From an uncultured Desulfovibrionaceae bacterium (GTDB lineage: Bacteria > Desulfobacterota > Desulfovibrionia > Desulfovibrionales > Desulfovibrionaceae), in contig CAYJHD010000001.1 of NCBI GenBank assembly GCA_964370015.1, positions 16,884 to 80,883 of the forward strand: a stretch of DNA of 64,000 nt, read 5' to 3'. The position numbers were made by a program, and so were the translations under genes. A model generated the notes under the pieces. The model saw only the letters and a list, made by a program, of their open reading frames with translations, did not search any database and had not been told where the DNA came from. How positions within the stretch are numbered: position 1 is the stretch's first letter; each line of letters begins with the position of its first letter. Below are positions 1 through 11,328 of the stretch, one piece after another.

Positions 1-794
1 TTATCTTTCTTAAGACTCGAAGGCTGAAATCCAAAAATTTCATACCAATCGTTGCCACACTCAGAAGCCAAAAGTTCTTGAATAAATGTAGCGTAGGAAA
101 CAGCCTGTAACATAGGTTTTGCTGTAATCGTGAAATCCTTTTTCAGCTCCATAATGCAAATAGTAGTTCCTCCACCTCGCCCTACCCTTGCTAAAATATC
201 AATTCCTCCGCCTGACCCTGCTGAGTATTTTAAATTTTTAGGATCTGACGCAGTAAAAGGCGTAGGCATTTGAAAACGGCAAATACCTGCAATTTTAACC
301 GGTTGAACACCGCATAACGCATCATTCTTTGACTTAGCATCAGTTTTTTCAAGTTCATCGAGTAAAAAAGATTCAAGCATATGCTCTTTTACACGTGGAA
401 ATTTTTCACAACTTTGAAAATGTTTCCTAAAGACTTTGGCTTCTTCGCTTAACCATAAAACTTTACCACGAGGAAAATCCTTTAGTGAGAAATATTTTTC
501 ATTTCCTTCGCTTTTAGTTACTTGCAAATAAATAGCATCATTTCCATAAACAATGTCTGCCACGTCTTGCCCACGAAATCTTAAATTAAAAGAATTCGCC
601 TTACCCTGCGCTTTCCCAACATTCATATACAAGTGCAAAGGAGCCCATTGATGAAAATTACTCTTTATTTTTTGCATTAGCCCAATATTTTCCTTAATTT
701 TTTGGGCATAATTAGCATACCGACCTTTCCATTCATCATTTTGCTGTAACCAGTTGCTTGCTACTTGCCATTGCTTGAAAAAATCAGAATTCAT
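1..794 (-). CDS. RecB/Cas4-like PD-(D/E)xK nuclease-domain protein, N-terminal 264 codons only (gene runs off the left edge)
   Basis: Absent from the ORF track. My own minus-strand translation from ATG 794-792 (GGAG at 804-801, directly after the upstream stop) stays open to base 1: MNSDFFKQWQ...HMLESFLLDELEK...GGIDILARVGRGGGTTICIMELKKDFTITAKPMLQAVSYATF. The order E / hhD / ExK / QxxxY matches RecB-family nuclease motifs. Confidence 0.6.
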   Translation of the reverse strand, partial: MNSDFFKQWQVASNWLQQNDEWKGRYANYAQKIKENIGLMQKIKSNFHQWAPLHLYMNVGKAQGKANSFNLRFRGQDVADIVYGNDAIYLQVTKSEGNEKYFSLKDFPRGKVLWLSEEAKVFRKHFQSCEKFPRVKEHMLESFLLDELEKTDAKSKNDALCGVQPVKIAGICRFQMPTPFTASDPKNLKYSAGSGGGIDILARVGRGGGTTICIMELKKDFTITAKPMLQAVSYATFIQELLASECGNDWYEIFGFQPSSLKKD

Positions 795-805
795 AATTCA
801 CTCCT

Positions 806-2065
806 TTATATTTCCATCCATTGACCATTAGCCACAGAAAACACAGTATCAAAGGTTGCCATATGCTCAGGCCAAGCTTCGCCATGCACCGGCACAAGCT
901 TAGCCCCTGTAAAGGCCGTAGCAATTTTTTGTAATATTTTCAAGGGGGCATGCCCACTCGTATGCATATGCTTAAAGCTACAAGGCGCTAAAAACTCTCT
1001 CTGAACTTTAGTACAATCCTGCTGCAGATATCCTCCCCACAAGGAAAAAATCCAGCTATCTTTTGACGTAGGAATAACGTTTTTTGCCGCAAAATCCCTA
1101 GCTAGAGAATCACGCACCACAATGACGCTTTTTTGCGCCTTAGCACTTTCCAAAGCCTCAGCGCCCAGAGCCACACGGTATTTTTTCAAATCTTCAATAT
1201 GCGGATCTTGCCCCATCCTTTTCAAATGGCGGAGCATACTTTTTGTGATAACCACGCGTAGATGCCCACCTTCCCAATGCGGCTGAGGAATACGCTCATG
1301 ATGCTGTAAAGTTCGTAAGGTGAGCATGGTGTATAAATCCACCACCAGCGTTCGCCCGCTTCGTTTACAAGCGCGGTATAAAGTCACCAATCTATCAATA
1401 TTACTAGAAGATGTGCTTATGAAAATGCGCCCTTGGCTTTCCGTAAATGCCTTCGCAAACTCATGCTCAAGCTCACTTTCCGTGGGAGTTGGCTTAGCGT
1501 GTACGCCTTGCTTTGGTAAATTAGTACCTTCCAGTAAAAGCACATCAGCCTTGGGAGGATGCGCCAAAAGATTTTCTGTTAAAAATGCCTTACGTCCATG
1601 CGCTCGAATATCTCCGGAATAAAAAAGGCTTTTTCCCTCCACCTCTATATGCAAAGCATAAGCATCAAAAGCCGAATGGTCCACCAGATACGGAGTAATG
1701 GTGAAAGGGCCTAAAGAAAAAGGGCGATTGTGTGAAAAATGCTTACATGGATGCTCTAAATGCTCTCCACCAGAAAGCAGAGAAAGACGCAGTAAGGCCT
1801 CCGTATCCTTACCACAATACACAGGCCACGTCTGCGGCAATTGTGATATCAAGCCACAATGATCCATATGCGCATGAGAAATAAACACCCCTGCCACAGG
1901 ACTATGCCTATCTAAAGATTCCGGCACTGGAGTGAGCACGCCGGAAGGAACATCCAAGGGACGTCCGGCATCCAGCAATATACGCTCCCCCGTGGAAGCC
2001 TTTACCTCTATGCACGAACCGCCAATGGTGTCCGCCCCCCTATGAATACATACTGAAACAGCCAT
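806..2065 (-). CDS. MBL-fold metallo-hydrolase of the beta-CASP nuclease type
   Basis: ORF track 806..2083; ATG 2065 preferred (AAGAGGAA 4 nt upstream). HxHxDH motif in ISHAHMDHCG, then VDHS, YSGD, LLLEGTN, and HTSGHA plus VPVHGE near the C-terminus. This is the layout of RNase J / CPSF73 / Artemis-type enzymes. Confidence 0.8.
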   Translation of the reverse strand: MAVSVCIHRGADTIGGSCIEVKASTGERILLDAGRPLDVPSGVLTPVPESLDRHSPVAGVFISHAHMDHCGLISQLPQTWPVYCGKDTEALLRLSLLSGGEHLEHPCKHFSHNRPFSLGPFTITPYLVDHSAFDAYALHIEVEGKSLFYSGDIRAHGRKAFLTENLLAHPPKADVLLLEGTNLPKQGVHAKPTPTESELEHEFAKAFTESQGRIFISTSSSNIDRLVTLYRACKRSGRTLVVDLYTMLTLRTLQHHERIPQPHWEGGHLRVVITKSMLRHLKRMGQDPHIEDLKKYRVALGAEALESAKAQKSVIVVRDSLARDFAAKNVIPTSKDSWIFSLWGGYLQQDCTKVQREFLAPCSFKHMHTSGHAPLKILQKIATAFTGAKLVPVHGEAWPEHMATFDTVFSVANGQWMEI

Positions 2066-2117
2066 ACATTCCTCTTTATACATGGTTAAAGAACACTTTT
2101 ACCTAAAGAAACATAGC

Positions 2118-2140
2118 ATCGTTTCAAAGTACGGAATGAT
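2118..2140. promoter_or_regulatory. Operator-like imperfect palindrome ATCGTTTC-N7-GGAATGAT, second copy of the WYL-gene operator
   Basis: 2117-2142 matches 8759-8784 at 22 of 26 positions in the same orientation. It lies 53-75 nt upstream of the beta-CASP ATG, in the divergent intergenic region. Confidence 0.45.
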
Positions 2141-2245
2141 AGCTAAAAAATTTATCTCCCTCCTCCTTAAAAATTGCTAAAAATCCTCTCCGTTCCGGCT
2201 TCTGGAATGACACCGTTATACAATTTTAAAAAAAGGAGTCATCCC

Positions 2246-2653
2246 ATGAAAATTTCCATGAAAAAAGCAATGTTGACAGCCCTGCTCTGCTTTATAAATA
2301 CACAAGCTCTAGCCCAAAGCCCCATGCAAGTACAAAAGACAAGTATGGCAGAAGTTAAAATTACCTCTTTACAAAATAACCTTGAAATCTATGCCATAAG
2401 TGTCAATAGGAATAATTGTATGCCCATACTTTCTTTGGATAGAGGGCAAGTTTTGAACTATGGAGATAGCTTCAACGCCATTGCCGTGGGAGAAAAAACC
2501 ACTAAAACCTATTTTTCCAATGAAGTAAGCAACGAAGCCCTGCACCAAATGAACCTCTTCATTAACATGGGTGTGAAGCAATATTGCACCGTCCTTGAAA
2601 TGACCATAGACAGCAGTGCTGGGCAATGGACTTTTTCTTGGGAAAACAAGTAA
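2246..2653 (+). CDS. Small secreted hypothetical protein
   Basis: ORF track 2174..2653; ATG 2246 preferred (AGGAG 2234-2238, 7 nt upstream). MKISMKKAMLTALLCFINTQALAQ looks like a Sec signal peptide. No recognisable domain. Confidence 0.55.
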   Translation: MKISMKKAMLTALLCFINTQALAQSPMQVQKTSMAEVKITSLQNNLEIYAISVNRNNCMPILSLDRGQVLNYGDSFNAIAVGEKTTKTYFSNEVSNEALHQMNLFINMGVKQYCTVLEMTIDSSAGQWTFSWENK

Positions 2654-2658
2654 AAAGC

Positions 2659-3873
2659 ATGAATAAAAATACACAACTGCTTTTCAAAGCCATACGTCAG
2701 GGGCGTCTTGAAAAAGTAAAAATTTTACTTATGAAAGACACAAATATAGAAGCGAGGCTTCCTAATGGATATACACCACTTCTTCATGCAATACGCTTTA
2801 AACAAGAAGAAATTGTTACTTTTTTACTTGGGAGCGATGCTTATATAGAAGCCAGAGAAAATCGTGAATATACCGCCCTGCTCTTGGCTGTAGAAAAAAA
2901 CATGCTCTCCATGGTGCAGTTGTTACTTGAACATGGCGCAGACGCTAATGCACGTAAATATTGTTATGACGGACACGATGAATGTGACCCAAGGCATTGG
3001 TCAGACTCTGCCCTCATCATAGCTGCAAAAAAGAATAATTACCCTATTGTTAAGCTTCTTTTGGAGCATGGGGCAGATGTGAATTTATGTGAAGAATGTG
3101 AGGCGGGAGCTGCTTTGCATTATACCAGTGATCCCCAGATAGTGCGTTTACTTATTGCTTATGGTGCTGATCTTGAAGCAGTGGCTGGCTGGCTTGGAAC
3201 GCCCTTAATGAGTGCTGCCTGTTGCCATAATTATGAAAAAGCAAAAATTCTTCTTGAGCACGGCGTAGATATCTATGCTGTGAATGGTGGAGAAGGAACT
3301 GCTGCTCATGTGGCAGCTAACAGTGGTTGCTTCTCTGTTCTTAAATTACTTTTGGATGCCCAGTATGACCCGCACTATGAAGTCTCACGTACCTTGAGCT
3401 TGCTATGGCATGGAAGTCTTGGCATTTCAGACAAGGACATTCATAAATTATTTAAATTACTATTAACATATGAATACAATGTAAATAAAAAATACAGAGG
3501 AACCCAGGATTTTATGAAGCTTTTGCATTGGCTTCCTCTAACGGTAGCAAAAGAAATTATTGCTTTAGGAGCTGATATTTATGCTGTAGACGATTATGGA
3601 AAAACAGCTTTTGGATATATAGCAAATCATAGCAGAGTAAAGAATGTAAAATATCTTTTTTCTTTAGGAATTAAGATGTCCAAAGCCGACGAAAAAAGCC
3701 TCTTTTTTTGCGTTGAACATGATCAGCTAGAGTTGCTACAAGTTTTTATAGAAAATGGTGCAAATATTCATGCTCTTAACGCGGAAGGTTGTAGCCTGGT
3801 GCAATACGCAAAAAAACTTGAACATGAAGAAATATATACTTATTTAGAAGAGCTTAAAATCTTAAAAGGTTAA
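2659..3873 (+). CDS. Ankyrin-repeat protein
   Basis: ORF track 2626..3873; ATG 2659 is the first Met after the upstream stop. Multiple ankyrin-type repeats, e.g. GYTPLLHAIRFKQEEIVTFLLGSDAYIEA, YTALLLAVEKNMLSMVQLLLEHGADANA, SALIIAAKKNNYPIVKLLLEHGADVN, GTPLMSAACCHNYEKAKILLEHGVDIYA. Confidence 0.85.
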   Translation: MNKNTQLLFKAIRQGRLEKVKILLMKDTNIEARLPNGYTPLLHAIRFKQEEIVTFLLGSDAYIEARENREYTALLLAVEKNMLSMVQLLLEHGADANARKYCYDGHDECDPRHWSDSALIIAAKKNNYPIVKLLLEHGADVNLCEECEAGAALHYTSDPQIVRLLIAYGADLEAVAGWLGTPLMSAACCHNYEKAKILLEHGVDIYAVNGGEGTAAHVAANSGCFSVLKLLLDAQYDPHYEVSRTLSLLWHGSLGISDKDIHKLFKLLLTYEYNVNKKYRGTQDFMKLLHWLPLTVAKEIIALGADIYAVDDYGKTAFGYIANHSRVKNVKYLFSLGIKMSKADEKSLFFCVEHDQLELLQVFIENGANIHALNAEGCSLVQYAKKLEHEEIYTYLEELKILKG

Positions 3874-3878
3874 ACAAA

Positions 3879-4133
3879 ATGAAGAAAATAGATTTTACTA
3901 CCGGAAGAAAAATTTCTTCACCTGATGTAAATATGACTTCCGCTGAGCAAACGCCAAGTGCTGAAGAATTTATCTTTGATGAAACTGACTTTGATTTGCC
4001 TGCCTTTCTTTCTCAACATACCTATGGCAATGAACAACCATTTCCACCTATTCAAAAATATCGTGGCCAAGTCTACGAAAAAAAGGCTTTTGCGGAAATG
4101 ATGCAGAAATATTTTAATAGGAATAAGGGGTGA
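3879..4133 (+). CDS. Hypothetical 84-aa protein
   Basis: ORF 5 nt after the ankyrin stop, same strand. No motif recognised and the RBS is weak. Confidence 0.35.
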   Translation: MKKIDFTTGRKISSPDVNMTSAEQTPSAEEFIFDETDFDLPAFLSQHTYGNEQPFPPIQKYRGQVYEKKAFAEMMQKYFNRNKG

Positions 4134-4229
4134 GTGAAATGAGTGCCCTTGTGTAGTTTCACATCATCCCATGAACAATTATATTGCTTTATTAATTGTT
4201 ACAAATAAGTCATCTAATTTTTAAGTCTC

Positions 4230-4266
4230 ATTTAATAACGTTTTATTTAATAATGTTTTATTTAAA
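4230..4266. repeat. 2.5 tandem copies of a 15-nt unit ATTTAATAAYGTTTT
   Basis: atttaataacgtttt / atttaataatgtttt / atttaaa read directly, in the convergent gap between 4133 and 4299. Confidence 0.6.
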
Positions 4267-4298
4267 CTGGGTGACATCACATGCACATAAGGCGTGGT

Positions 4299-6020
4299 TT
4301 ATTGGCGATGACTGCTTGCTAAAAGTTGGTGCATAGCTTCCCCATGCTGTTTAGCAAGGTTTTCATTCCAGACATTATTATTCTCTTCAGAAAGTTTAAA
4401 CATAAGTAATAATTTAATACTTTCGAGACTTTGCTCGTTTTTCAGTCTATCTTGTAGGCGTCCAAATTTTGTATTTATGGCATCATTACCTTGTGCAGAA
4501 TTGAAGCTAGCTGAAATCATAGCTAAGTTACCAAAGAAATGAACTTGGTCTCCAAATGAACCAGAAGATTGTGGATGCAAATGCTCAATGGAACGATTTT
4601 CCTTGAAAGAGTAATTTTTAATAGCTTTAAACTCATCTTTGTTAAATTTGAATTCATGCCTAGCAATATTTACCTTAATTGGCTCTTTTCCACTGCTCCA
4701 TTTTTTATCAACACATATTTCCCACAAAAGATAATCAAGCTTCCAAAACCAGTACCTTTCAATTTTTCCATAGCACATATCAACAAGTATTGGGAGGGGG
4801 CGATTATCAATTTCTTTAAGATGTTCGAGAGTTAAATCTCCTCCTTCTGACTTTTCATAAGCCTTCAGCACCCATTCTTGGCTTGCAAAAGAACTCACAC
4901 CAAGCATACTTTGATACTGTAATAATTTTCTTTTATTTATGTCTTCGTATTCTGATTCTTCACTATTGTCTTGTGATTTAAGATTAAAACCATTTTCTGT
5001 AATATAAATAATATTGCCATCTAACCATTTTCTGTACTTTTTCATTTTACTAATGAAATATTCTCCAAAAAAACACCTATTATCTATATTTTTTTTAAAA
5101 ATTTCTATAAGTTTATATTGATCCAAAGAAACCTTATCTCCTTTAAACAAAAAATCTGTATAAATTCTAAGAGCATGCAGGATAAAAGTAGACTCAGAAA
5201 CAATAGCTCGAGTTGTACTTTTTGGGCTTTTTTCAGTTGGCTCACTATACATGATATTTTCATCATCGCATTTTAATATATCTATAAAACTTTTTTTATC
5301 AGTGCATTGATTATTATTTTCAGAAATATTATCTTGAGAATATTTTTTTGAAAAATCTATAATCTTATTAAATTTAACTGCATGTTCTTGAAAATATTTC
5401 CCTTTTATAATGTCTTGAGGTTCTAACTGTCTTCCCGTAGCATTGATACGCTCAAAATGTCTATTTAGCTCATGAGGAGTATAGTTAGGATCAAGCTCTG
5501 AGCACAAAAATGTTGCTTGTGCTCGTACAAATGCAAAAAATTCACTTTTTTTGTTAATATTTTCAATAAAAGAATTAAAAGCATTAACAAACTTCCTAGT
5601 TTTCATATTTTTAATTTCATCAAATTTATTTTCAACAATATATTCTATATCTGTTGTGTCATGCTCTCTGCCTACATATTCCATTCGCAGTTCTTTATCA
5701 TTATTAAACAGAAAATCATCAAATTTTGGAGTTTCACCTTCCGCCAAGGCAGCAAAAAGAGTTAAAAATGTCAAACGTTGTTGCCCATCAACAATTTCCC
5801 AAACTTTCGCGTCTTCGCGCTTAACAATTGTTATTATACCTATATAGTAGGGGGTATCTTTCGCTTTTACCGACGCTTTATACAAATCGTCTAACAATTG
5901 ATTTATCTGCTTTTCATCCCATACAAAAAGACGTTGATAAATAGGAATACGATATCGTATACTCTTATTAATATCTTCAGACAATGACGCTATTGTATAT
6001 GAATTATTATTTTGGATCAT
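4299..6020 (-). CDS. DUF262 + DUF1524 (His-Me/HNH-like) protein, GmrSD/BrxU-like type IV restriction enzyme candidate
   Basis: N-terminal IPIYQRLFVWDEKQINQLLDDL and VDGQQRLTFLT (DUF262/ParB-like NTPase). C-terminal SIEHLHPQS ... GNLAMISASFNSAQGN (DUF1524-type nuclease). Very AT-rich coding sequence. Confidence 0.85.
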   Translation of the reverse strand: MIQNNNSYTIASLSEDINKSIRYRIPIYQRLFVWDEKQINQLLDDLYKASVKAKDTPYYIGIITIVKREDAKVWEIVDGQQRLTFLTLFAALAEGETPKFDDFLFNNDKELRMEYVGREHDTTDIEYIVENKFDEIKNMKTRKFVNAFNSFIENINKKSEFFAFVRAQATFLCSELDPNYTPHELNRHFERINATGRQLEPQDIIKGKYFQEHAVKFNKIIDFSKKYSQDNISENNNQCTDKKSFIDILKCDDENIMYSEPTEKSPKSTTRAIVSESTFILHALRIYTDFLFKGDKVSLDQYKLIEIFKKNIDNRCFFGEYFISKMKKYRKWLDGNIIYITENGFNLKSQDNSEESEYEDINKRKLLQYQSMLGVSSFASQEWVLKAYEKSEGGDLTLEHLKEIDNRPLPILVDMCYGKIERYWFWKLDYLLWEICVDKKWSSGKEPIKVNIARHEFKFNKDEFKAIKNYSFKENRSIEHLHPQSSGSFGDQVHFFGNLAMISASFNSAQGNDAINTKFGRLQDRLKNEQSLESIKLLLMFKLSEENNNVWNENLAKQHGEAMHQLLASSHRQ

Positions 6021-7335
6021 TTTTTGGCTCCAAATTTAATATTTTAGCATAATTTTCCACTGGTAAAATATGCTTATTAGGCAAGCATGTAAATAATTCG
6101 TGTAAACTCCTCAAGTAATTTTCTCGCACCCCCTCTGTATTTTCAGAAATATAACGATATTCCAATTTCAAACAGTGTACAAAGAGTACGCTTGGATTTG
6201 TAGAGGTATCAATAATTTGAACAAGATCTTGGAAAACATTTTGAGTATGAATAAAATCCTTCCGAACATAATTTTCATTACGTAATTCTGAAATTCTGTA
6301 AGCAATACAAAATAAAGCCTCAGAAAGATAATACTCACCAAATTTTAAATAAAATAAAAATGTAATAGCTTTAATAGCATTACAAAGAACACCATTACTA
6401 TGATTACGTAACTTTTTTTCTAGTTCTTTAATATCTTCAAAGTTTTCAAAAATATCTAATCTTAGCCTATGCTCATCAACAAATTCAAAAAAATCTATTC
6501 CACCATTAAAAATGGAATTATATTGCGTAAGAGTTGGTGCTACAGATATATTATCCATAATGCTATATTTTACAGAATAATGTTCAAATAGAAGGCGTCT
6601 TCCGTACTTATCTGGCTCAACATATGGCTTATCTTTGTAACTCCAATTACGCAATCTATACAGCATATAGTTAAGCAATTCTTCCTGTCTGTTTTCATCC
6701 ATTAAATTCCACTTACTCGCTATAAGACCAGATAAGTGATCAGGAACATAGCGTAAATGATGCGTTTTTAATAAATCATAGTCAGAAAGCTGCTTACCTG
6801 TTGCATTTGTAGCATTAAAAAATCTATACGCGAGATCTTCTGGCTCATCATTCGGAATAGTCACAAGGCAAACTTTAATTTCATCTAAAAAAAACTGTAA
6901 AACTTTGTCTTTTCCAAGAAACCACATTTCAATTGTTTTTAAAGCTCTAATAATATATCCTATATGCTCTTTTGATATATTTTCAGTTTCTGATATATCA
7001 CTTTGTAACAATGGTACACATTCATCCCCTTTCTCATTGCTAATGTAGATTAAAATTGAAAGAGTTATTAGTCTTTGTTGCCCATCAATAATGGAAAGTT
7101 CATCTTTTTCTCCCTGTTTTACAATAATAGTCCCCAGATGAAATGATGCGTTACTAGCATTTTTATGATTATAAATATCATCTAGCAAAGCAACAATATT
7201 TTCACTACGCCAACAATATCCTCGTTGATAGGCAGGAATACTAAGAGTTTTGAGAAGTAGCTTTTTTAATAATATGGTATCACAGGAAACTTGACTAGGA
7301 TTTGAGTTATTAGATAAAGAAATTTGATTTGACAT
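6007..7335 (-). CDS. DUF262 domain protein without recognisable nuclease domain
   Basis: ORF track 6007..7353; ATG 7335 preferred (GGAG 5 nt upstream). IPAYQRGYCWRSENIVALLDDI and IDGQQRLITLS. No HNH/DUF1524 motif seen downstream. 14-nt overlap with the next gene. Confidence 0.8.
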   Translation of the reverse strand: MSNQISLSNNSNPSQVSCDTILLKKLLLKTLSIPAYQRGYCWRSENIVALLDDIYNHKNASNASFHLGTIIVKQGEKDELSIIDGQQRLITLSILIYISNEKGDECVPLLQSDISETENISKEHIGYIIRALKTIEMWFLGKDKVLQFFLDEIKVCLVTIPNDEPEDLAYRFFNATNATGKQLSDYDLLKTHHLRYVPDHLSGLIASKWNLMDENRQEELLNYMLYRLRNWSYKDKPYVEPDKYGRRLLFEHYSVKYSIMDNISVAPTLTQYNSIFNGGIDFFEFVDEHRLRLDIFENFEDIKELEKKLRNHSNGVLCNAIKAITFLFYLKFGEYYLSEALFCIAYRISELRNENYVRKDFIHTQNVFQDLVQIIDTSTNPSVLFVHCLKLEYRYISENTEGVRENYLRSLHELFTCLPNKHILPVENYAKILNLEPKNDPK

Positions 7336-7367
7336 AGCCACTCCTAAAATCATAACAATAGAATGTA

Positions 7368-7661
7368 TTATCGTGGAAATTTTGGCCTATACAAAACGTC
7401 CGGTACTGTCAGCACCAAGCACATATTCACACCATCTCCATCCCAAGTAAGCCGCTCTCTGTGGCGTGCTTCCTCAAGTTCACGTTCCCTATGTGCTTTA
7501 CGCACGGCATCACTCAAGGACTCTACTCTAAGAGGATTTCTATAGGGGCAGGTCATAAAAGCTTCGTTTGAAACATATGCCCTTTGTTGTTTACGAAAAG
7601 CCTTATGTCCATTATTACCAGCGAGAAAAATCCCCATAAGGTTGCGCAATATTTTTAGCAC
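7368..7661 (-). CDS. Hypothetical 97-aa protein between the WYL regulator and the DUF262 genes
   Basis: GTG start at 7661 with a G-run immediately upstream. It lies 16 nt after the WYL gene stop. Arg/Glu-rich core RKAHRERELEEARHRER; no family recognised. Coding status unproven. Confidence 0.35.
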   Translation of the reverse strand: MLKILRNLMGIFLAGNNGHKAFRKQQRAYVSNEAFMTCPYRNPLRVESLSDAVRKAHRERELEEARHRERLTWDGDGVNMCLVLTVPDVLYRPKFPR

Positions 7662-7677
7662 AGTCCCCCCTTTTTCT

Positions 7678-8688
7678 TTAGTAGCTCTGTGCTAGCATAG
7701 TGACTTGTTTTTTCAGCTCATCCCGCAGCCAATGCGGTTCCAGCACCTTAGCTTTAGCCCCAAAGCTGAACACCCAAGACACAATTTCCGGTGGGCTTTG
7801 AGCGTCAAAATCTAACATCAACGAGCCATCATCTTGCACGGTCATACTTTGTCTATTGCTCCACACCCTATCGTAAATGTAGGCTGCCGTTTCTGCCGCA
7901 AAGAGGATGCGTACTCTAAAAGAATCCCCCTGCATAATGCCAAAGGGGCCTACCTTTGTACTCTCTTGAGCATAAGGCGGTTCTGAAATATGACTAGCAT
8001 CAAGCTCCGTCATCTGTACCTCTTGGCAACGTTGTAAATACAACGATAGTGCATTATCATATTTAGGTTGTGCAGGATGAGCCTCATCCACTTCCCAGCC
8101 ATGAAAAGAAAGACTCTCTCTAAAAGAAATAAGTCTCTTGGGCGCAAAGGCAAATGTTCTGGCAGGCTTGGAAGGGCTACGCTTATAGGTCACCATACAT
8201 ACTTTTTGCTTTTGCGTTGCTTGCAATAAGATGCTGTACTGCTTTTCATAAGACGCATAATCAATATAGCCCTTATGGAAGTTTTTGGCCGCTGCAGCAA
8301 AAGGAGAGAGCAAAGGAGACTCCGGTTTTTCTGCAGTTTGCGATGGGGCATCTCCTAAAAAAGCATTCATCCCTTTAGGCAGCATCTGCAAAAACAGATT
8401 CCGACAAAGATTGAGCTGCATAAGCTCCTTAACCCCAAGATTCAAATCGAGCATGGGCATGGGAGCAAAACGATGATAATGTTCCTTCCCCTTAACTAAA
8501 GGCGTATCCAGCTTGCCATATCCCGAAGCCTCTAATTGCAGTAAAAGACGTGATACTGTCTGCTTAGAGCATTCCAAAATGCGCGCTAGCTCCGTTAAAG
8601 ATGTATAGCTTTCCCCTTGCACCATGAAAAATGTGTACAGGGCTAAAAGCTTTTCACCGGGGCTTTTTTCAGATTTCTTCACTGGCAT
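7678..8688 (-). CDS. HTH-WYL-WCX transcriptional regulator (BrxR/CapW-like architecture)
   Basis: N-terminal wHTH SLTELARILECSKQTVSRLLLQLEASG. Central WYL-type segment VCMVTYKRSPSKPARTFAFAPKRLISFRESLSFHGW. C-terminal FRVRILFAAETAAYIYDRVW...GSLMLDF...WVFSFGAKAKVLEPHWLRDEL. RBS AGGAAGGA upstream of ATG 8688. Confidence 0.8.
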   Translation of the reverse strand: MPVKKSEKSPGEKLLALYTFFMVQGESYTSLTELARILECSKQTVSRLLLQLEASGYGKLDTPLVKGKEHYHRFAPMPMLDLNLGVKELMQLNLCRNLFLQMLPKGMNAFLGDAPSQTAEKPESPLLSPFAAAAKNFHKGYIDYASYEKQYSILLQATQKQKVCMVTYKRSPSKPARTFAFAPKRLISFRESLSFHGWEVDEAHPAQPKYDNALSLYLQRCQEVQMTELDASHISEPPYAQESTKVGPFGIMQGDSFRVRILFAAETAAYIYDRVWSNRQSMTVQDDGSLMLDFDAQSPPEIVSWVFSFGAKAKVLEPHWLRDELKKQVTMLAQSY

Positions 8689-8759
8689 ATTTTTTCCTTC
8701 CTATTGCATTACTAGGTAAAACCTTCTAATTTTTCGGCAGGGGTAAAATATATATAAAC

Positions 8760-8782
8760 ATCGTTCCAAAATACGGAACGAT
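8760..8782. promoter_or_regulatory. Perfect palindrome ATCGTTCC-N7-GGAACGAT, putative WYL-regulator operator
   Basis: Read directly. It lies 72-94 nt upstream of the WYL gene ATG and overlaps AT-rich promoter-like sequence (TATATATA). It is duplicated at 2117-2142. Confidence 0.5.
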
Positions 8783-8831
8783 AATGAAGAAAGTTCAACC
8801 GCTTTTTACTTAAGCTATCCTGAAAAACCAT

Positions 8832-8862
8832 AAAAGGCACTCCCATCACGAGAGTGCCTTTT
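8832..8862. terminator. Hairpin AAAAGGCACTC-N9-GAGTGCCTTTT with A/T runs on both sides
   Basis: Inverted repeat read directly, followed by TTTTGT on plus and by a T-run on minus. No gene ends immediately next to it, so its role is uncertain. Confidence 0.4.
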
Positions 8863-9276: not shown

Positions 9277-9353
9277 TGGTCGGGATGAAAGGATTTGAAC
9301 CTTCGACCCCTTGAACCCCATTCAAGTGCGCTCCCAGGCTGCGCTACATCCCG
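9277..9353 (-). tRNA. tRNA-Pro, anticodon GGG, CCA encoded
   Basis: Manual cloverleaf: acceptor CGGGATG/CATCCCG, D stem GCGC/GCGC, anticodon stem CTTGA/TCAAG with loop ATGGGGT, T stem GAAGG/CCTTT, T loop TTCAAAT, discriminator A, CCA. 77 nt. Confidence 0.9.
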
Positions 9354-9690: not shown

Positions 9691-10629
9691 TTACAACAAA
9701 GAAAATTGCCTACGCATCACGCTATGGTTTGGACGTTGCGTGATAATGGCATCATCAGGTAACTGCCCCACCAGCAGCTGTGATGTAGGATCGTGCACAC
9801 GCACATTTCGCTTACCCCTTTCATCGCTGCTTAAAGCATAGCAATAAGAACAGCCATTGGCGCAAGAATTATACGTTCCAATTTCAATGCTTTCCACACA
9901 CTGACACTCAGGTCTTTGATGTTTATCGCGCGCAACATCTATGGAGCAACCCAGTATTTTCTCTATAATGTCTTTATCAATACAAGAAGAAGCTTGTACG
10001 CCATGGGCAGACAGGTCACTTTTTTCTGAGCACGTATGGAGTGTGAATCCGAACTCGCGCCCAATGGATGAAAAAGTTTCTGCAATGGCATTCATCATAT
10101 CATAAGAAACACTATACGCAGGTAATTTACCCAACCTATTTTGCATATTCTTATAAATATCCACAAAGCTTATGATACACCTATCGGTACATCCACTCAG
10201 ATGCCTTGCCATATATCTAAAGGCTTTTTCGTGATATTCCACAGTAAAAATACTATCCACCATGATGGGATCATAACGCCACACCATTCTATGCGCACCA
10301 AGTTGCTTACTCAGCTCTTGAAAAGCTTGTAAAAGTCGCACTTTATCGGGTAAATTTCTTTCTACGCTTTTATTATAGGGCGTTATGGTAAATTGAAAAT
10401 AATAAGGATAACCCAAACTATCTATGATGGGCAAGTATTGCAAAAAAGGAAGGGGATTTTTAGTCCAAAAAACAATGCAATCCACAGCTTCTCGCCGTAA
10501 ATCTACCCCATAATAACGCTGAGCATTATAAGGGTTTGGCACAAGAACATGACCTCTTTGCAAAGCATTTACAAACCACTGCCCATAATAGGACGGAATG
10601 TCCGTTCTTCTGCTGGCACTTAGTATCAT
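9691..10629 (-). CDS. DUF1848 family protein with C-terminal Cys cluster (possible Fe-S DNA-repair enzyme)
   Basis: N-terminus MILSASRRTDIPSYYGQWFVNALQRGHVLVPNPYN matches my memory of DUF1848. Cys cluster CQCVESIEIGTYNSCANGCSYCYA. Last gene of the umuDC-ogt-alkD operon. Confidence 0.7.
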   Translation of the reverse strand: MILSASRRTDIPSYYGQWFVNALQRGHVLVPNPYNAQRYYGVDLRREAVDCIVFWTKNPLPFLQYLPIIDSLGYPYYFQFTITPYNKSVERNLPDKVRLLQAFQELSKQLGAHRMVWRYDPIMVDSIFTVEYHEKAFRYMARHLSGCTDRCIISFVDIYKNMQNRLGKLPAYSVSYDMMNAIAETFSSIGREFGFTLHTCSEKSDLSAHGVQASSCIDKDIIEKILGCSIDVARDKHQRPECQCVESIEIGTYNSCANGCSYCYALSSDERGKRNVRVHDPTSQLLVGQLPDDAIITQRPNHSVMRRQFSLL

Positions 10630-10638
10630 AAATAGGTT

Positions 10639-11328
10639 CTATCTTCTCATGAGTTTAATACGTGCTTTGGTCTCAGCATCCACTTTTAACGATTCACGTA
10701 TTTTTTGTAACGATTTATTATACGTGAAATCGTCCAATCTATTTTTTTGCAAAAAAAGCAGAGTGCGTTCAGGAAAGGAGACAAAACACATGGACACAGC
10801 CCAAGCCACAGCCATTTTCACATAATAATCTTCATGTGTTATCTGATTAAACATCTCAAAAAGGCTCTCAAGGCACACCTCTTCTCTAAAGTACATCAAG
10901 CATAAAACCACAGCAAAGCGTATATCATAGGCCTGTGCAGATGCGGCATAAGGTTGCAAAAACTCCCAAAAAATTTCGGGATGTTTTTTTACTATTTTAA
11001 GCTCGGTGCAAAAAGAATCACACAAAGACCAATTGGTGATCTTAGGTACAAAAAAAGCCACATGAGGCAAAATAGTTTGCACATCCACCTTCATATTGCC
11101 AATGATAAGCCCTTTGAGCATGGTTTCTTCAAAGTAGATGTCGCTAGTATGATAAAGATATGCCTCTCCATCTTGCTTGGCAATGCGCTGCGCTATTTTG
11201 CGCAAAAGCGGTATGCGCACGCCCAACAGATTTTCACAGCCGGGAATGAGCGCCGCAGAAAATTTTTGATACTTGGGCTCAGCTAAAGCCAACAGTTCCT
11301 GACGTATGGTATTTTCTAAAGTATGCAT
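10639..11328 (-). CDS. DNA alkylation repair protein (AlkC/AlkD-like HEAT-repeat glycosylase family)
   Basis: 229 aa. LLALAEPKYQKFSAALIPGCENLLGVRIPLLRKIAQRIAK and a helical-repeat character typical of the DNA alkylation repair enzyme family. Confidence 0.75.
   Translation of the reverse strand: MHTLENTIRQELLALAEPKYQKFSAALIPGCENLLGVRIPLLRKIAQRIAKQDGEAYLYHTSDIYFEETMLKGLIIGNMKVDVQTILPHVAFFVPKITNWSLCDSFCTELKIVKKHPEIFWEFLQPYAASAQAYDIRFAVVLCLMYFREEVCLESLFEMFNQITHEDYYVKMAVAWAVSMCFVSFPERTLLFLQKNRLDDFTYNKSLQKIRESLKVDAETKARIKLMRR

What the first reader, a model, noticed from the sequence alone, without database searches (positions are those of the whole stretch)
2117..2142. Same 26-nt operator-like sequence upstream of both the WYL-regulator operon and the beta-CASP/nuclease operon
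Site A (2117-2142, catcgtttcaaagtacggaatgatag) and site B (8759-8784, catcgttccaaaatacggaacgataa) are identical at 22 of 26 positions by my count, in the same orientation relative to the downstream minus-strand genes. Site A lies 53-75 nt upstream of ATG 2065 and site B 72-94 nt upstream of ATG 8688. Site B is a perfect palindrome, ATCGTTCC-N7-GGAACGAT. I saw no third copy in the window. BrxR-type WYL regulators are known to bind inverted repeats in their own promoters. A duplicated site 6.6 kb away therefore suggests that one regulator controls both nuclease modules, linking them functionally. Site A sits in a divergent intergenic region, so it could also act on the secreted-protein/ankyrin operon.
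Basis: seen in the sequence. Interest (0 to 1): 0.75.

Follow-up and report, generated by a model that had tools for sequence, protein, structure and literature searches.

The report
Shared WYL-regulator box upstream of two operons
The repeated 23-26 bp palindrome is real and is very probably the DNA-binding box of the neighbouring WYL-domain regulator, tying a restriction-like operon, a nuclease-like operon and probably an ankyrin operon into one small regulon; this is an ordinary kind of arrangement, but for an uncharacterised regulator family.

Summary
Sites A (2117-2142) and B (8759-8784) match at 22/26 positions and are the only strong copies in 64 kb.

The same box, ATCGTTCC-N7-GGAAYGAT, lies within 300 nt upstream of homologous WYL genes in 42 of 83 loci from many phyla. 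It was absent from 76 MBL loci that lack this WYL family. In other genomes it also precedes MBL-containing operons, and in some the WYL gene directly precedes the MBL gene.

There are two corrections. First, a weaker third box, A2 (2189-2211), faces the secreted-protein/ankyrin operon. Second, the regulator resembles the activator DriD more than BrxR. Its modelled fold matches DriD best, its box has DriD's half-N7-half geometry, and in 66 of 89 family sites a -10-like hexamer sits exactly 7 nt beyond the box with no -35. Sites B and A2 follow this rule. Site A does not: it has TGcTATGTT 2 nt after the box.

Co-regulation is therefore likely. Whether the regulator activates or represses is unresolved, though activation is favoured for B and A2. 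I class this as a new member of a known kind. No binding or expression was tested.

The parts
8760..8782 (-). It is the predicted binding site of the WYL regulator at the promoter of its own operon.
   Evidence: It scores 29.0 bits with the matrix built from other genomes, the top hit in the window. By the family orientation rule it points toward the WYL gene.
8747..8752 (-). Candidate -10 hexamer TATATT, exactly 7 nt beyond box B on the gene strand.
   Evidence: Read from the sequence. The same N7 spacing is seen in 66 of 89 family sites. This is inferred; no transcription start was mapped.
2118..2140 (-).
   Evidence: It scores 21.6 bits, second in the window. It is 20/23 identical to the box upstream of the orthologous MBL gene in L006.
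2110..2118 (-). TGcTATGTT, an extended -10-like element that starts at the last base of box A (hexamer 2 nt after the box). No -10-like hexamer is present at the family-typical N7 position.
   Evidence: The ortholog L006 has TGaTATGTC at the same place. This is inferred.
2189..2211 (+). Box A2: a weaker third box, TCCGTTCCGGCTTCTGGAATGAC, oriented toward the plus-strand secreted-protein/ankyrin operon.
   Evidence: It scores 15.2 bits, third in the window, with the next hit at 8.4. The maxima of shuffled windows average 10.5 and reach 19.1, so the score alone is not significant. Its place 48 nt from box A and its N7 -10 give it weight.
2219..2224 (+). Candidate -10 hexamer TACAAT, 7 nt beyond box A2. 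It is followed by the ribosome-binding site AAGGAG (2233-2238) and ATG 2246.
   Evidence: Read from the sequence, together with the family N7 rule.
7681..8688 (-). Regulator gene, 336 aa: winged HTH, helical linker, WYL domain, WCX domain.
   Evidence: Pfam WCX at 3.9e-17 plus weak HTH hits. PADLOC WYL at 5e-17. Model pLDDT 81.5. Foldseek gives DriD 3.5e-15, PafBC 1e-11, CapW 4e-7 and BrxR 6e-7. The recognition-helix motif CSKQTVxRL is nearly invariant in the family.
7368..7661 (-). Small 97-aa ORF (GTG start, GGGGGG upstream) that fills the gap between the regulator gene and the next gene.
   Evidence: Its function is unknown and it may not be a real gene.
6007..7353 (-). DUF262 (GmrSD_N) plus DUF7834 protein, 448 aa.
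   Evidence: Pfam. PADLOC HEC-06, Orf5 and SspE-type N-terminal hits.
4299..6020 (-). GmrSD-family protein (GmrSD_N plus a weak GmrSD_C match), 573 aa. It is a likely type IV restriction-like effector.
806..2065 (-). MBL / beta-CASP (RNase J-like) hydrolase, 419 aa. It is the first gene of the operon behind box A.
   Evidence: Pfam Lactamase_B_2 at 9e-16. NCBIfam RNase J family, below its cut-off. PDB RNase J at 4.5e-16.
1..794 (-). Gene downstream of the MBL gene, with 264 aa visible before the window edge cuts it. It carries a PD-(D/E)xK-like motif (GIDIL...IMELK) seen by eye.
   Evidence: No hit in Pfam, NCBIfam, PADLOC or the PDB sequences. It is not similar to the gene in the same position in L006.
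2246..4133 (+). Secreted-protein gene (2246-2653), ankyrin-repeat gene (2626-3873) and an 84-aa ORF (3879-4133). This is a possible third target, through box A2.
   Evidence: Regulation is inferred from box A2 only.
8832..8862 (-). Strong intrinsic terminator that insulates the WYL promoter from the upstream tRNA-Pro gene and its operon.
   Evidence: and (-21.1 kcal/mol, z = -6.0).

Best explanation
Boxes A, B and probably A2 are binding sites for a dimer of the wHTH-WYL-WCX regulator encoded at 7681-8688. Through them one ligand-sensing regulator co-controls three units:
- its own operon (regulator, a small ORF and two GmrSD-family proteins);
- the MBL/beta-CASP operon 6.6 kb away;
- probably the divergent secreted-protein/ankyrin operon.

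The regulator belongs to an uncharacterised subfamily whose recognition helix (CSKQTVxRL) and box (ATCGTTCC-N7-GGAAYGAT) are conserved together across phyla.

The most likely mode is DriD-like activation, which I put at about 55-60%. In that mode, ligand-bound protein sits where a -35 element would be, exactly 7 bp upstream of the -10, and recruits RNA polymerase to promoters that lack a -35. The ligand would probably be single-stranded DNA, as for DriD, PafBC and CapW. Boxes B and A2 fit this geometry.

Box A lies 5 bp closer to an extended -10-like element, so at the MBL promoter the same protein may act differently, possibly as a repressor.

Shown: the sequence, its conservation, its co-occurrence with the regulator gene, and its spacing to -10-like hexamers. 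Inferred: binding, ligand, sign of regulation and transcription starts.
For: 1. Only three box-like sites exist in 64 kb, and all lie in the two promoter regions.
2. In 42 of 83 non-redundant loci with a homologous WYL gene, a box scoring at least 16 bits lies within 300 nt upstream of that gene. Only 20 such boxes occur in the other 1.10 Mb, several of them before neighbouring operons. Shuffled sequence gives 3 per 1.13 Mb.
3. As a negative control, 80 metagenomic loci chosen by the MBL protein carry boxes only where this WYL gene is present (L093, L153). There are none in the 76 loci that lack this WYL family.
4. The WYL-MBL link recurs. The WYL gene directly precedes the MBL gene in L003/L090, L007, L093 and L098. 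A box precedes operons that contain an MBL gene in L006 (a related Desulfovibrionaceae genome whose WYL gene, on another contig, has its own box), in L042 and in L153.
5. A fixed geometry holds. In 66 of 89 sites a -10-like hexamer lies exactly 7 nt beyond the better-conserved half, against 2.5 expected, and the box occupies the -35 position. B (TATATT) and A2 (TACAAT) obey this rule.
6. The same geometry is documented for DriD. Its site is ATACGAC-N7-GTCGTAT, at a fixed distance from the -10 in promoters without a -35. I read that distance as 7-8 nt from the didA promoter sequences in the paper's methods, where the engineered -35 was placed inside the site's spacer (PMC13004042).
7. The modelled regulator matches DriD best (Foldseek 3.5e-15, against about 1e-6 for CapW and BrxR).
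8. The box orientation rule assigns A to the MBL operon, A2 to the ankyrin operon and B to the WYL operon.
9. A cultured-isolate plasmid (Desulfosarcina sp. BuS5) shows AAA ATPase <- TATAAT-N7-box / WYL ->.
Against: - No binding or expression data exist.
- The source genome could not be scanned outside the 64-kb window, so the genome-wide frequency of the box is unknown.
- The family sites were first found with a matrix seeded from the window and its relatives, so their resemblance to A and B is partly by construction. Their enrichment, spacing and spacer consensus are not.
- The loci were retrieved through the recognition-helix peptide, so the sample is biased toward proteins expected to share a box.
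- Box A lacks the family-typical -10 at N7 (TTCTTT).
- Most close Desulfovibrionaceae relatives keep only the promoter-proximal half-site.
- L001 has only a half box upstream of its WYL gene, and L002 has none in the 90 nt available.
- Most MBL homologs (76 of 80) are not associated with this regulator.
- In many divergent loci the regulator's own promoter (TTGnTT-N18-TATCGT) has its -10 inside the box. That is a repressor geometry, so the sign may differ between promoters.
Confidence: 0.75

Rival explanations
1. The boxes and the regulator are the same, but the protein is a BrxR/CapW-type repressor. Unliganded dimers occupy the boxes, block RNA polymerase at all target promoters, and leave on ligand binding.
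For: - The characterised defence-island WYL proteins of the BrxR and CapW types are repressors, and BrxR of pEFER has two boxes in one island (PMC9122601; PMC9122588).
- The boxes overlap core promoter positions.
- Box A abuts an extended -10-like TGcTATGTT, a position where a bound protein should hinder polymerase.
- In many family loci the regulator's own -10 (TATCGT) lies inside the box, as with CapW palindromes that overlap the -10.
Against: - A strict N7 spacing in 66 of 89 sites, and the absence of any -35 or TGn at most of these promoters, is typical of activator-dependent promoters, not of operators.
- The fold and the half-N7-half box match DriD, not BrxR, whose repeats are 10-11 bp with a 5-bp spacer.
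Confidence: 0.3
2. Only box B is functional, as autoregulation. Box A is a decaying relic of an ancestral WYL-MBL promoter or of a recombination event, and it no longer controls the MBL operon.
For: - WYL-MBL is a single gene string in other genomes, so the window arrangement is derived.
- Box A lacks the canonical N7 -10, and each of its halves carries a mismatch.
Against: - Box A still scores 21.6 bits, above every one of 30 shuffled windows, while its flanks have diverged.
- The orthologous MBL promoter in L006 keeps a 20/23-identical box plus the same TGnTATGT in an otherwise unalignable intergenic region.
- Its orientation fits the family rule.
Confidence: 0.1
3. The palindromes act at the RNA level, as hairpins or an intrinsic terminator, or they are bound by an unrelated transcription factor.
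For: - Box B is flagged as terminator-like on the minus strand.
- It folds at -12.5 kcal/mol with z = -4.4.
Against: - Box A does not fold (-4.5 kcal/mol, z = -0.9).
- Family sites are often imperfect palindromes, conserved in sequence rather than in pairing.
- A far stronger terminator already lies upstream at 8832-8862.
- The box tracks the presence of the WYL gene.
Confidence: 0.04

Closest known systems
DriD of Caulobacter crescentus (WYL activator; PMC9186387, PMC10853764, PMC13004042)
   Same: - Domain order is wHTH, helical linker, WYL, WCX, in about 330 aa.
- It is the best structural match to the model.
- Its site is pseudo-palindromic with a 7-bp spacer (ATACGAC-N7-GTCGTAT).
- The site sits where a -35 would be, at a fixed distance from the -10, which I read as about 7 bp.
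- Several promoters are controlled, including a nuclease gene (bapE) and an operon divergent from driD.
   Different: - Sequence identity is only about 15-18% and the half-site differs (TCGTTCC against TACGAC).
- The targets here are restriction-like and MBL genes in a low-GC island, not chromosomal DNA-damage genes.
- Activation and single-stranded DNA sensing are untested here.
- Box A departs from the fixed spacing.
BrxR of E. fergusonii pEFER, with R-BOX1 and R-BOX2 (PMC9122601), and BrxR of Acinetobacter
   Same: - It is a WYL regulator in a defence island.
- It has two related boxes in front of two transcription units.
- It is associated with a GmrSD-family enzyme (BrxU, stated from my own knowledge).
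- It binds inverted repeats as a dimer.
   Different: - BrxR boxes are 10-11 bp repeats with a 5-bp spacer, lying downstream of the -10, and BrxR is a repressor.
- Foldseek similarity is weaker (6e-7 to 1e-4), and no sequence-level hit was found.
- The two boxes here are 6.6 kb apart, with an unrelated operon between them.
CapW (CBASS-associated WYL repressor; PMC9122588, PMC11662680)
   Same: - It has the wHTH-WYL-WCX architecture.
- It binds a 19-24 bp palindrome at the promoter shared with a divergent operon.
- It senses single-stranded DNA.
   Different: - CapW palindromes overlap the -10 and the protein represses.
- There is no CBASS system here.
- Structural similarity is lower than to DriD.
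DdaA of Moraxellaceae (WYL activator of DNA-damage and anti-phage genes; PMC12392091)
   Same: It is a DriD-related WYL activator. Its palindromic motif marks a variable regulon that includes restriction-modification, Zorya and CRISPR-Cas operons.
   Different: - The motif is CGWCA-N5-TGWCG.
- DdaA is a global, SOS-replacing regulator, whereas here only a local island-level regulon is seen.

Membership tests
wHTH-WYL-WCX transcription factors (superfamily) | N-terminal winged helix-turn-helix domain | tested here: met
   Weak Pfam HTH hits at residues 21-59. The model shows three helices plus a beta-hairpin at residues 10-72. Foldseek aligns the full length to DriD, CapW and BrxR.
wHTH-WYL-WCX transcription factors (superfamily) | WYL domain followed by a WCX dimerisation domain | tested here: met
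   Pfam WCX PF25583 at 3.9e-17. PADLOC WYL at 5.3e-17. PF13280 (WYL) is recorded for many homologs. The family profile hits the DriD and PafC C-terminal domains.
wHTH-WYL-WCX transcription factors (superfamily) | Palindromic binding site in or near its own promoter | tested here: met
   Box B lies 72-94 nt upstream of the start codon. The same box lies upstream of 42 of 83 homologs. Binding itself was not tested.
DriD-like WYL activators | Helical (three-helix-bundle) linker between the wHTH and WYL domains, in a protein of about 330 aa | tested here: inconclusive
   The model has helices 86-102 and 144-160, but residues 112-139 have pLDDT below 50. The best Foldseek hits are full-length DriD, with TM only 0.43.
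DriD-like WYL activators | Half-site, 7-bp spacer, half-site box | tested here: met
   The box here is ATCGTTCC-N7-GGAACGAT. DriD's is ATACGAC-N7-GTCGTAT.
DriD-like WYL activators | Box at the -35 position, at a fixed distance from the -10, in promoters lacking a -35 | tested here: met
   66 of 89 family sites have a -10-like hexamer at exactly N7. This holds for boxes B and A2 but not for box A. The -10 elements are predicted, not mapped.
DriD-like WYL activators | Activates transcription when bound to single-stranded DNA | not testable with these tools
   This needs in vitro transcription, reporter assays and ligand-binding assays.
BrxR family (defence-island repressors) | 10-11 bp inverted repeats separated by 5 bp, placed between the -10 and the gene | tested here: not met
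   The box here is 8-N7-8 and lies upstream of the predicted -10.
BrxR family (defence-island repressors) | Detectable sequence or close structural similarity to BrxR | tested here: inconclusive
   There is no sequence hit. Foldseek gives 6e-7 (7qfz) and 3e-5 (7t8k), weaker than for DriD and PafBC.
BrxR family (defence-island repressors) | Co-location with phage-defence genes | tested here: met
   Two GmrSD-family genes lie in the same operon. The L001 homolog sits next to a GmrSD pair and a type I-E CRISPR-Cas locus.
Intrinsic terminator | Stable GC-rich hairpin followed by a U-run, conserved as structure | tested here: not met
   Only box B folds (-12.5 kcal/mol); box A does not. Family sites conserve sequence, not pairing.

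The most novel reading that the evidence does not exclude
The box and regulator define a widespread, undescribed DriD-like activator family, found in Desulfobacterota, Syntrophia, Bacteroidota, Succinivibrionaceae and other groups. Its strictly spaced box-N7-(-10) promoters switch on a mobile stress or defence regulon. That regulon is built around a CDC48-like double-AAA ATPase, ClpP-like proteases, MBL/beta-CASP hydrolases and restriction-like enzymes. In this Desulfovibrionaceae genome the same signal would also induce a secreted-protein/ankyrin operon, coupling host-interaction genes to DNA-damage or phage sensing.
Probability: 0.3. Interest if true: 0.6.

Novelty: new member of a known kind. 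Interest (0 to 1): 0.5.

Why it matters
The work gives a concrete, testable regulon for an uncharacterised WYL subfamily: a 23-bp box, a spacing rule and three candidate promoters in one island. It shows that physically separate modules in an island can be wired to one sensor.

The conserved pairing of box and recognition helix lets the targets of this family be predicted in hundreds of uncultured anaerobes. Recurrent targets include a double-AAA ATPase and MBL-containing cassettes that PADLOC 2.0 does not list, which makes them candidates for new stress or defence systems.

It also cautions against reading every defence-island WYL protein as a BrxR-type repressor.

Tried and rejected
- **Exact look-up of the window's own WYL protein** returned no contig, so the source genome could not be scanned beyond the window.
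- **Standard sigma-70 scans** of both promoter regions gave nothing above chance. The promoters lack a -35.
- **Inverted-repeat search** upstream of the distant AAA-WYL-MBL loci gave no shared palindrome. The link emerged only with a half-site matrix.
- **A viral-contig scan with the MBL protein and a phage-record search with the WYL protein** both found nothing.
- **A single-sequence PDB search with the WYL protein** found nothing. The family profile hit only WCX regions.
- **A sigma-54 promoter reading of TGGAAC/TGGCAC** was considered by eye and dropped, because no GC element lies at the required spacing.
- **A recent segmental duplication of the promoter** was rejected because the flanks are dissimilar.
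- **The RNA hairpin or terminator reading** was rejected.
- **Homology between the gene downstream of the MBL gene here and the one in L006/L007** was not found. The partner gene is variable.
- **A full-text search for the motif together with WYL** found nothing relevant.

Full report
**1. Observation**

Site A (2117-2142) and site B (8759-8784) agree at 22 of 26 positions. The 23-nt cores (2118-2140 and 8760-8782) agree at 20 of 23. B is a perfect ATCGTTCC-N7-GGAACGAT palindrome, and each half of A carries one mismatch.

A search for ATCGTTYC-N7-GGAAYGAT with up to two mismatches finds only these two places in 64 kb, against 0.05 expected. Outside the core the two regions are no more alike than AT-rich DNA in general: 23/60 upstream and 12/60 downstream. 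What is conserved is therefore the box, not a recently copied promoter.

**2. Gene context**

On the minus strand, box B is followed by:
- a 336-aa HTH-WYL-WCX protein (7681-8688);
- a 97-aa ORF (7368-7661);
- a DUF262/DUF7834 protein (6007-7353);
- a GmrSD-family protein (4299-6020).

Box A is followed by an MBL/beta-CASP, RNase J-like protein. Its start is ATG 2065, with a good ribosome-binding site, and it has 419 aa. Next comes a gene cut by the window edge that matches no family and carries only a PD-(D/E)xK-like motif.

Between the two minus-strand units, on the plus strand, lie a secreted-protein gene (ATG 2246), an ankyrin-repeat gene and an 84-aa ORF.

A strong terminator (8832-8862) and a tRNA-Pro gene (9277-9353) lie just upstream of box B. 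GC content falls to 31-38% over 2-8 kb. This looks like an acquired island.

The nearest relatives are uncultured Desulfovibrionaceae.

**3. The box belongs to the WYL family**

Close relatives carry the same box:
- L006 has one upstream of a 65%-identical MBL gene, and a second in front of the next gene.
- L009 (same genome as L006) and L008 have one in front of a SpoU-methylase/WYL operon.

A genome-collection scan with an alignment of the regulator family returned 80 loci from many phyla. A half-site matrix found ATCGTTCC-N7-GGAAYGAT-type boxes in most of them.

In 42 of 83 non-redundant loci a box of at least 16 bits lies within 300 nt upstream of the WYL gene. The positions cluster at 44-54 and at 104-116 nt from the start codon. 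Only 20 further boxes occur in the remaining 1.10 Mb, and shuffled sequence gives 3 per 1.13 Mb.

Several of those further boxes precede neighbouring operons: a double-AAA ATPase, a ClpP-like protease and a DUF2779 protein.

A matrix built only from 37 sites of other genomes ranks the window as follows:

| Position | Score (bits) |
|---|---|
| 8760 (box B) | 29.0 |
| 2118 (box A) | 21.6 |
| 2189 (box A2) | 15.2 |
| next best hit | 8.4 |

Across 30 shuffled windows, the maximum score averaged 10.5 and reached 19.1 at most.

Two caveats apply. The family sites were discovered with a matrix seeded from the window's clade. The loci were also retrieved through the recognition-helix peptide CSKQTVxRL, so the sample is biased toward proteins likely to share a box. 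The enrichment next to WYL genes, the shared spacer consensus (CCATATTRCGG) and the spacing rule described below do not follow from that construction.

**4. The link to the MBL module**

MBL homologs at 53-54% identity lie immediately after a homolog of this WYL gene, with overlapping stop and start codons. The conserved gene string there is AAA ATPase, WYL, MBL and an unknown gene (L003-5, L007).

I then sampled 80 metagenomic loci through the MBL protein alone.
- Only four contain this WYL family. In three of them the WYL gene sits directly upstream of the MBL gene.
- Boxes of at least 14 bits occur only in WYL-containing loci (L093, L153). There are none in the other 76 loci.

In L153 a strong box lies between the WYL gene and a divergent operon containing an MBL gene. 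In L042 a second box precedes an operon that runs ClpP, AAA, a 156-aa gene, MBL and two further ORFs.

So the MBL module is a mobile unit that has repeatedly been placed under this regulator. The window and L006 are two cases in which this is done through a separate box rather than by co-transcription.

**5. What kind of regulator it is**

An AlphaFold model built on the family alignment has mean pLDDT 81.5. Foldseek matches, in order:

| Structure | E-value |
|---|---|
| DriD | 3.5e-15 |
| PafBC | about 1e-11 |
| CapW | 4e-7 |
| BrxR | 6e-7 to 1e-4 |

Sequence searches reach only the WCX domains of DriD and PafC.

DriD binds ATACGAC-N7-GTCGTAT. Its site lies where a -35 element would be, at a fixed distance from the -10, in promoters that have no -35. 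I read that distance as 7-8 nt from the didA promoter sequences in the methods, where the authors engineered the 'optimised -35' inside the site's spacer (PMC13004042).

I tested this geometry on the family. In 66 of 89 sites a -10-like hexamer lies exactly 7 nt beyond the better-conserved GGAACGAT end, against 2.5 expected. No other offset comes close. At a 14-bit threshold the figure is 68 of 91. The position where a -35 would lie falls inside the box and reads CGYAAT, which is not -35-like.

A plasmid of the cultured Desulfosarcina sp. BuS5 shows the same arrangement in front of its AAA ATPase gene.

By contrast, BrxR boxes are 10-11 bp repeats with a 5-bp spacer downstream of the -10, and CapW palindromes overlap the -10.

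**6. The window's three boxes under this rule**

The rule also gives an orientation: the target gene lies on the GGAACGAT side.
- **Box B** points to the WYL operon and has TATATT at N7 (8752-8747).
- **Box A2** (2189-2211) points to the plus-strand secreted-protein/ankyrin operon. It has TACAAT at N7 (2219-2224), followed by AAGGAG and ATG 2246.
- **Box A** points to the MBL operon but has TTCTTT at N7. Instead TGcTATGTT begins at the last base of the box. The orthologous L006 promoter has TGaTATGTC at the same place, in an intergenic region that is otherwise unalignable.

Thus B and A2 look like DriD-type activated promoters. At the MBL promoter the box sits about half a helical turn closer to an extended -10-like element, so the outcome there cannot be predicted and may be repression.

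In many divergent family loci the regulator's own promoter reads TTGnTT-N18-TATCGT, with its -10 inside the box. This suggests autorepression combined with activation of the divergent gene.

The sign of regulation therefore remains open. I favour activation for B and A2, at roughly 55-60%.

**7. Rivals**

- An RNA hairpin or terminator is excluded. Only box B folds (-12.5 kcal/mol); box A does not (-4.5 kcal/mol, z = -0.9).
- A relic box A is unlikely, given its score and its conservation in L006.
- A different binding protein is unlikely, given how closely the box tracks the WYL gene.

**8. Novelty**

The following are already known:
- WYL regulators with palindromic boxes;
- two boxes in one defence island (BrxR R-BOX1 and R-BOX2);
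- WYL activators with multi-operon regulons that include defence systems (DriD, DdaA).

No paper in the searchable library pairs this motif with WYL.

The finding is therefore a new member of a known kind: a well-supported but untested regulon for an uncharacterised, widely distributed DriD-like subfamily. It adds a third box and an ankyrin operon as a possible target.

Noticed in passing
L003 4488-9981; L007 6723-12169; L090, L093, L098: A conserved gene string runs double-AAA (CDC48-like) ATPase, WYL, MBL/beta-CASP, then an unknown gene of about 300 aa. In L007 it sits between integrases and mobilisation genes. Neither the MBL protein nor the unknown partner hits PADLOC 2.0 at E below about 1e-7. 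This is a candidate undescribed stress or defence cassette.
   Followed up: partly
L010-L089 (for example L028, L034, L043, L069); L170 4657-8002: The most frequent neighbour of this WYL family is a roughly 740-aa double-AAA ATPase, usually divergent from the WYL gene with the box between them. In L042 a ClpP-like protease precedes the ATPase. By recollection, this parallels the link between the WYL regulators PafBC and the proteasome/AAA system.
   Followed up: partly
window 9277-9353 (-) and 1-8860: A tRNA-Pro(GGG) gene and a strong terminator lie directly upstream of the WYL operon. GC content drops to 31-38% over 2-8 kb, against 44-52% elsewhere. This is probably a genomic island at a tRNA site; its left end lies beyond the window.
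   Followed up: no
window 9691-11328 (-): A DUF1848 protein hits the PADLOC model 'RTasDUF1848' (DRT-associated) at 6e-45. It lies next to a DNA-alkylation-repair-family protein, just beyond the tRNA gene. No box is nearby.
   Followed up: no
L001 4640-18441: In a related genome, the 56%-identical WYL gene sits between a DUF262/GmrSD pair plus a 574-aa unknown gene and a type I-E CRISPR-Cas operon (starting with cas3). Only one half of the box (ATCGTTCCA, at about 9856) remains upstream of that WYL gene.
   Followed up: partly
L033, L036, L039, L040, L052, L055, L059, L062, L066, L067 (about 110 nt upstream of the WYL gene): In this class of loci the box is followed, about 19 nt later, by a well-conserved TTTACA-N17-TAATGT/TATAGT promoter. 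The spacer of that promoter contains an extra half-site (CACGAT) 4 nt before the -10. This suggests a second, half-site-based control of the regulator's own promoter.
   Followed up: no
L002 3115-4801; L001 1-1588; window 2246-4133: Ankyrin-repeat genes, with a small secreted or unknown protein, flank the WYL islands in three related Desulfovibrionaceae genomes. They are either conserved flanking genes of an integration hotspot or part of the cargo.
   Followed up: no
L008 3424-3855: A 143-aa ORF is 61% identical to the C-terminal (WCX) part of the window's regulator. It lies downstream of a PDDEXK_4 gene in the same locus as a full-length WYL gene, and looks like a remnant of a second regulator copy.
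   Followed up: no
L095 about 400-669; L103 about 1360-1631: In two termite-type metagenome contigs the closest MBL homologs (57-59% identity) are preceded by a reading frame encoding an HTH-like peptide (...IAEECDVSEKSILRYIETLR...) instead of the full WYL protein.
   Followed up: no
L009/L010 4871-4893: A further good box (ATCGTTCCATGATTTGGAGTGAT, 19-22 bits) lies about 240 nt upstream of a 166-aa gene of unknown family and near a sigma-54 activator gene. It has no -10-like hexamer at N7.
   Followed up: no
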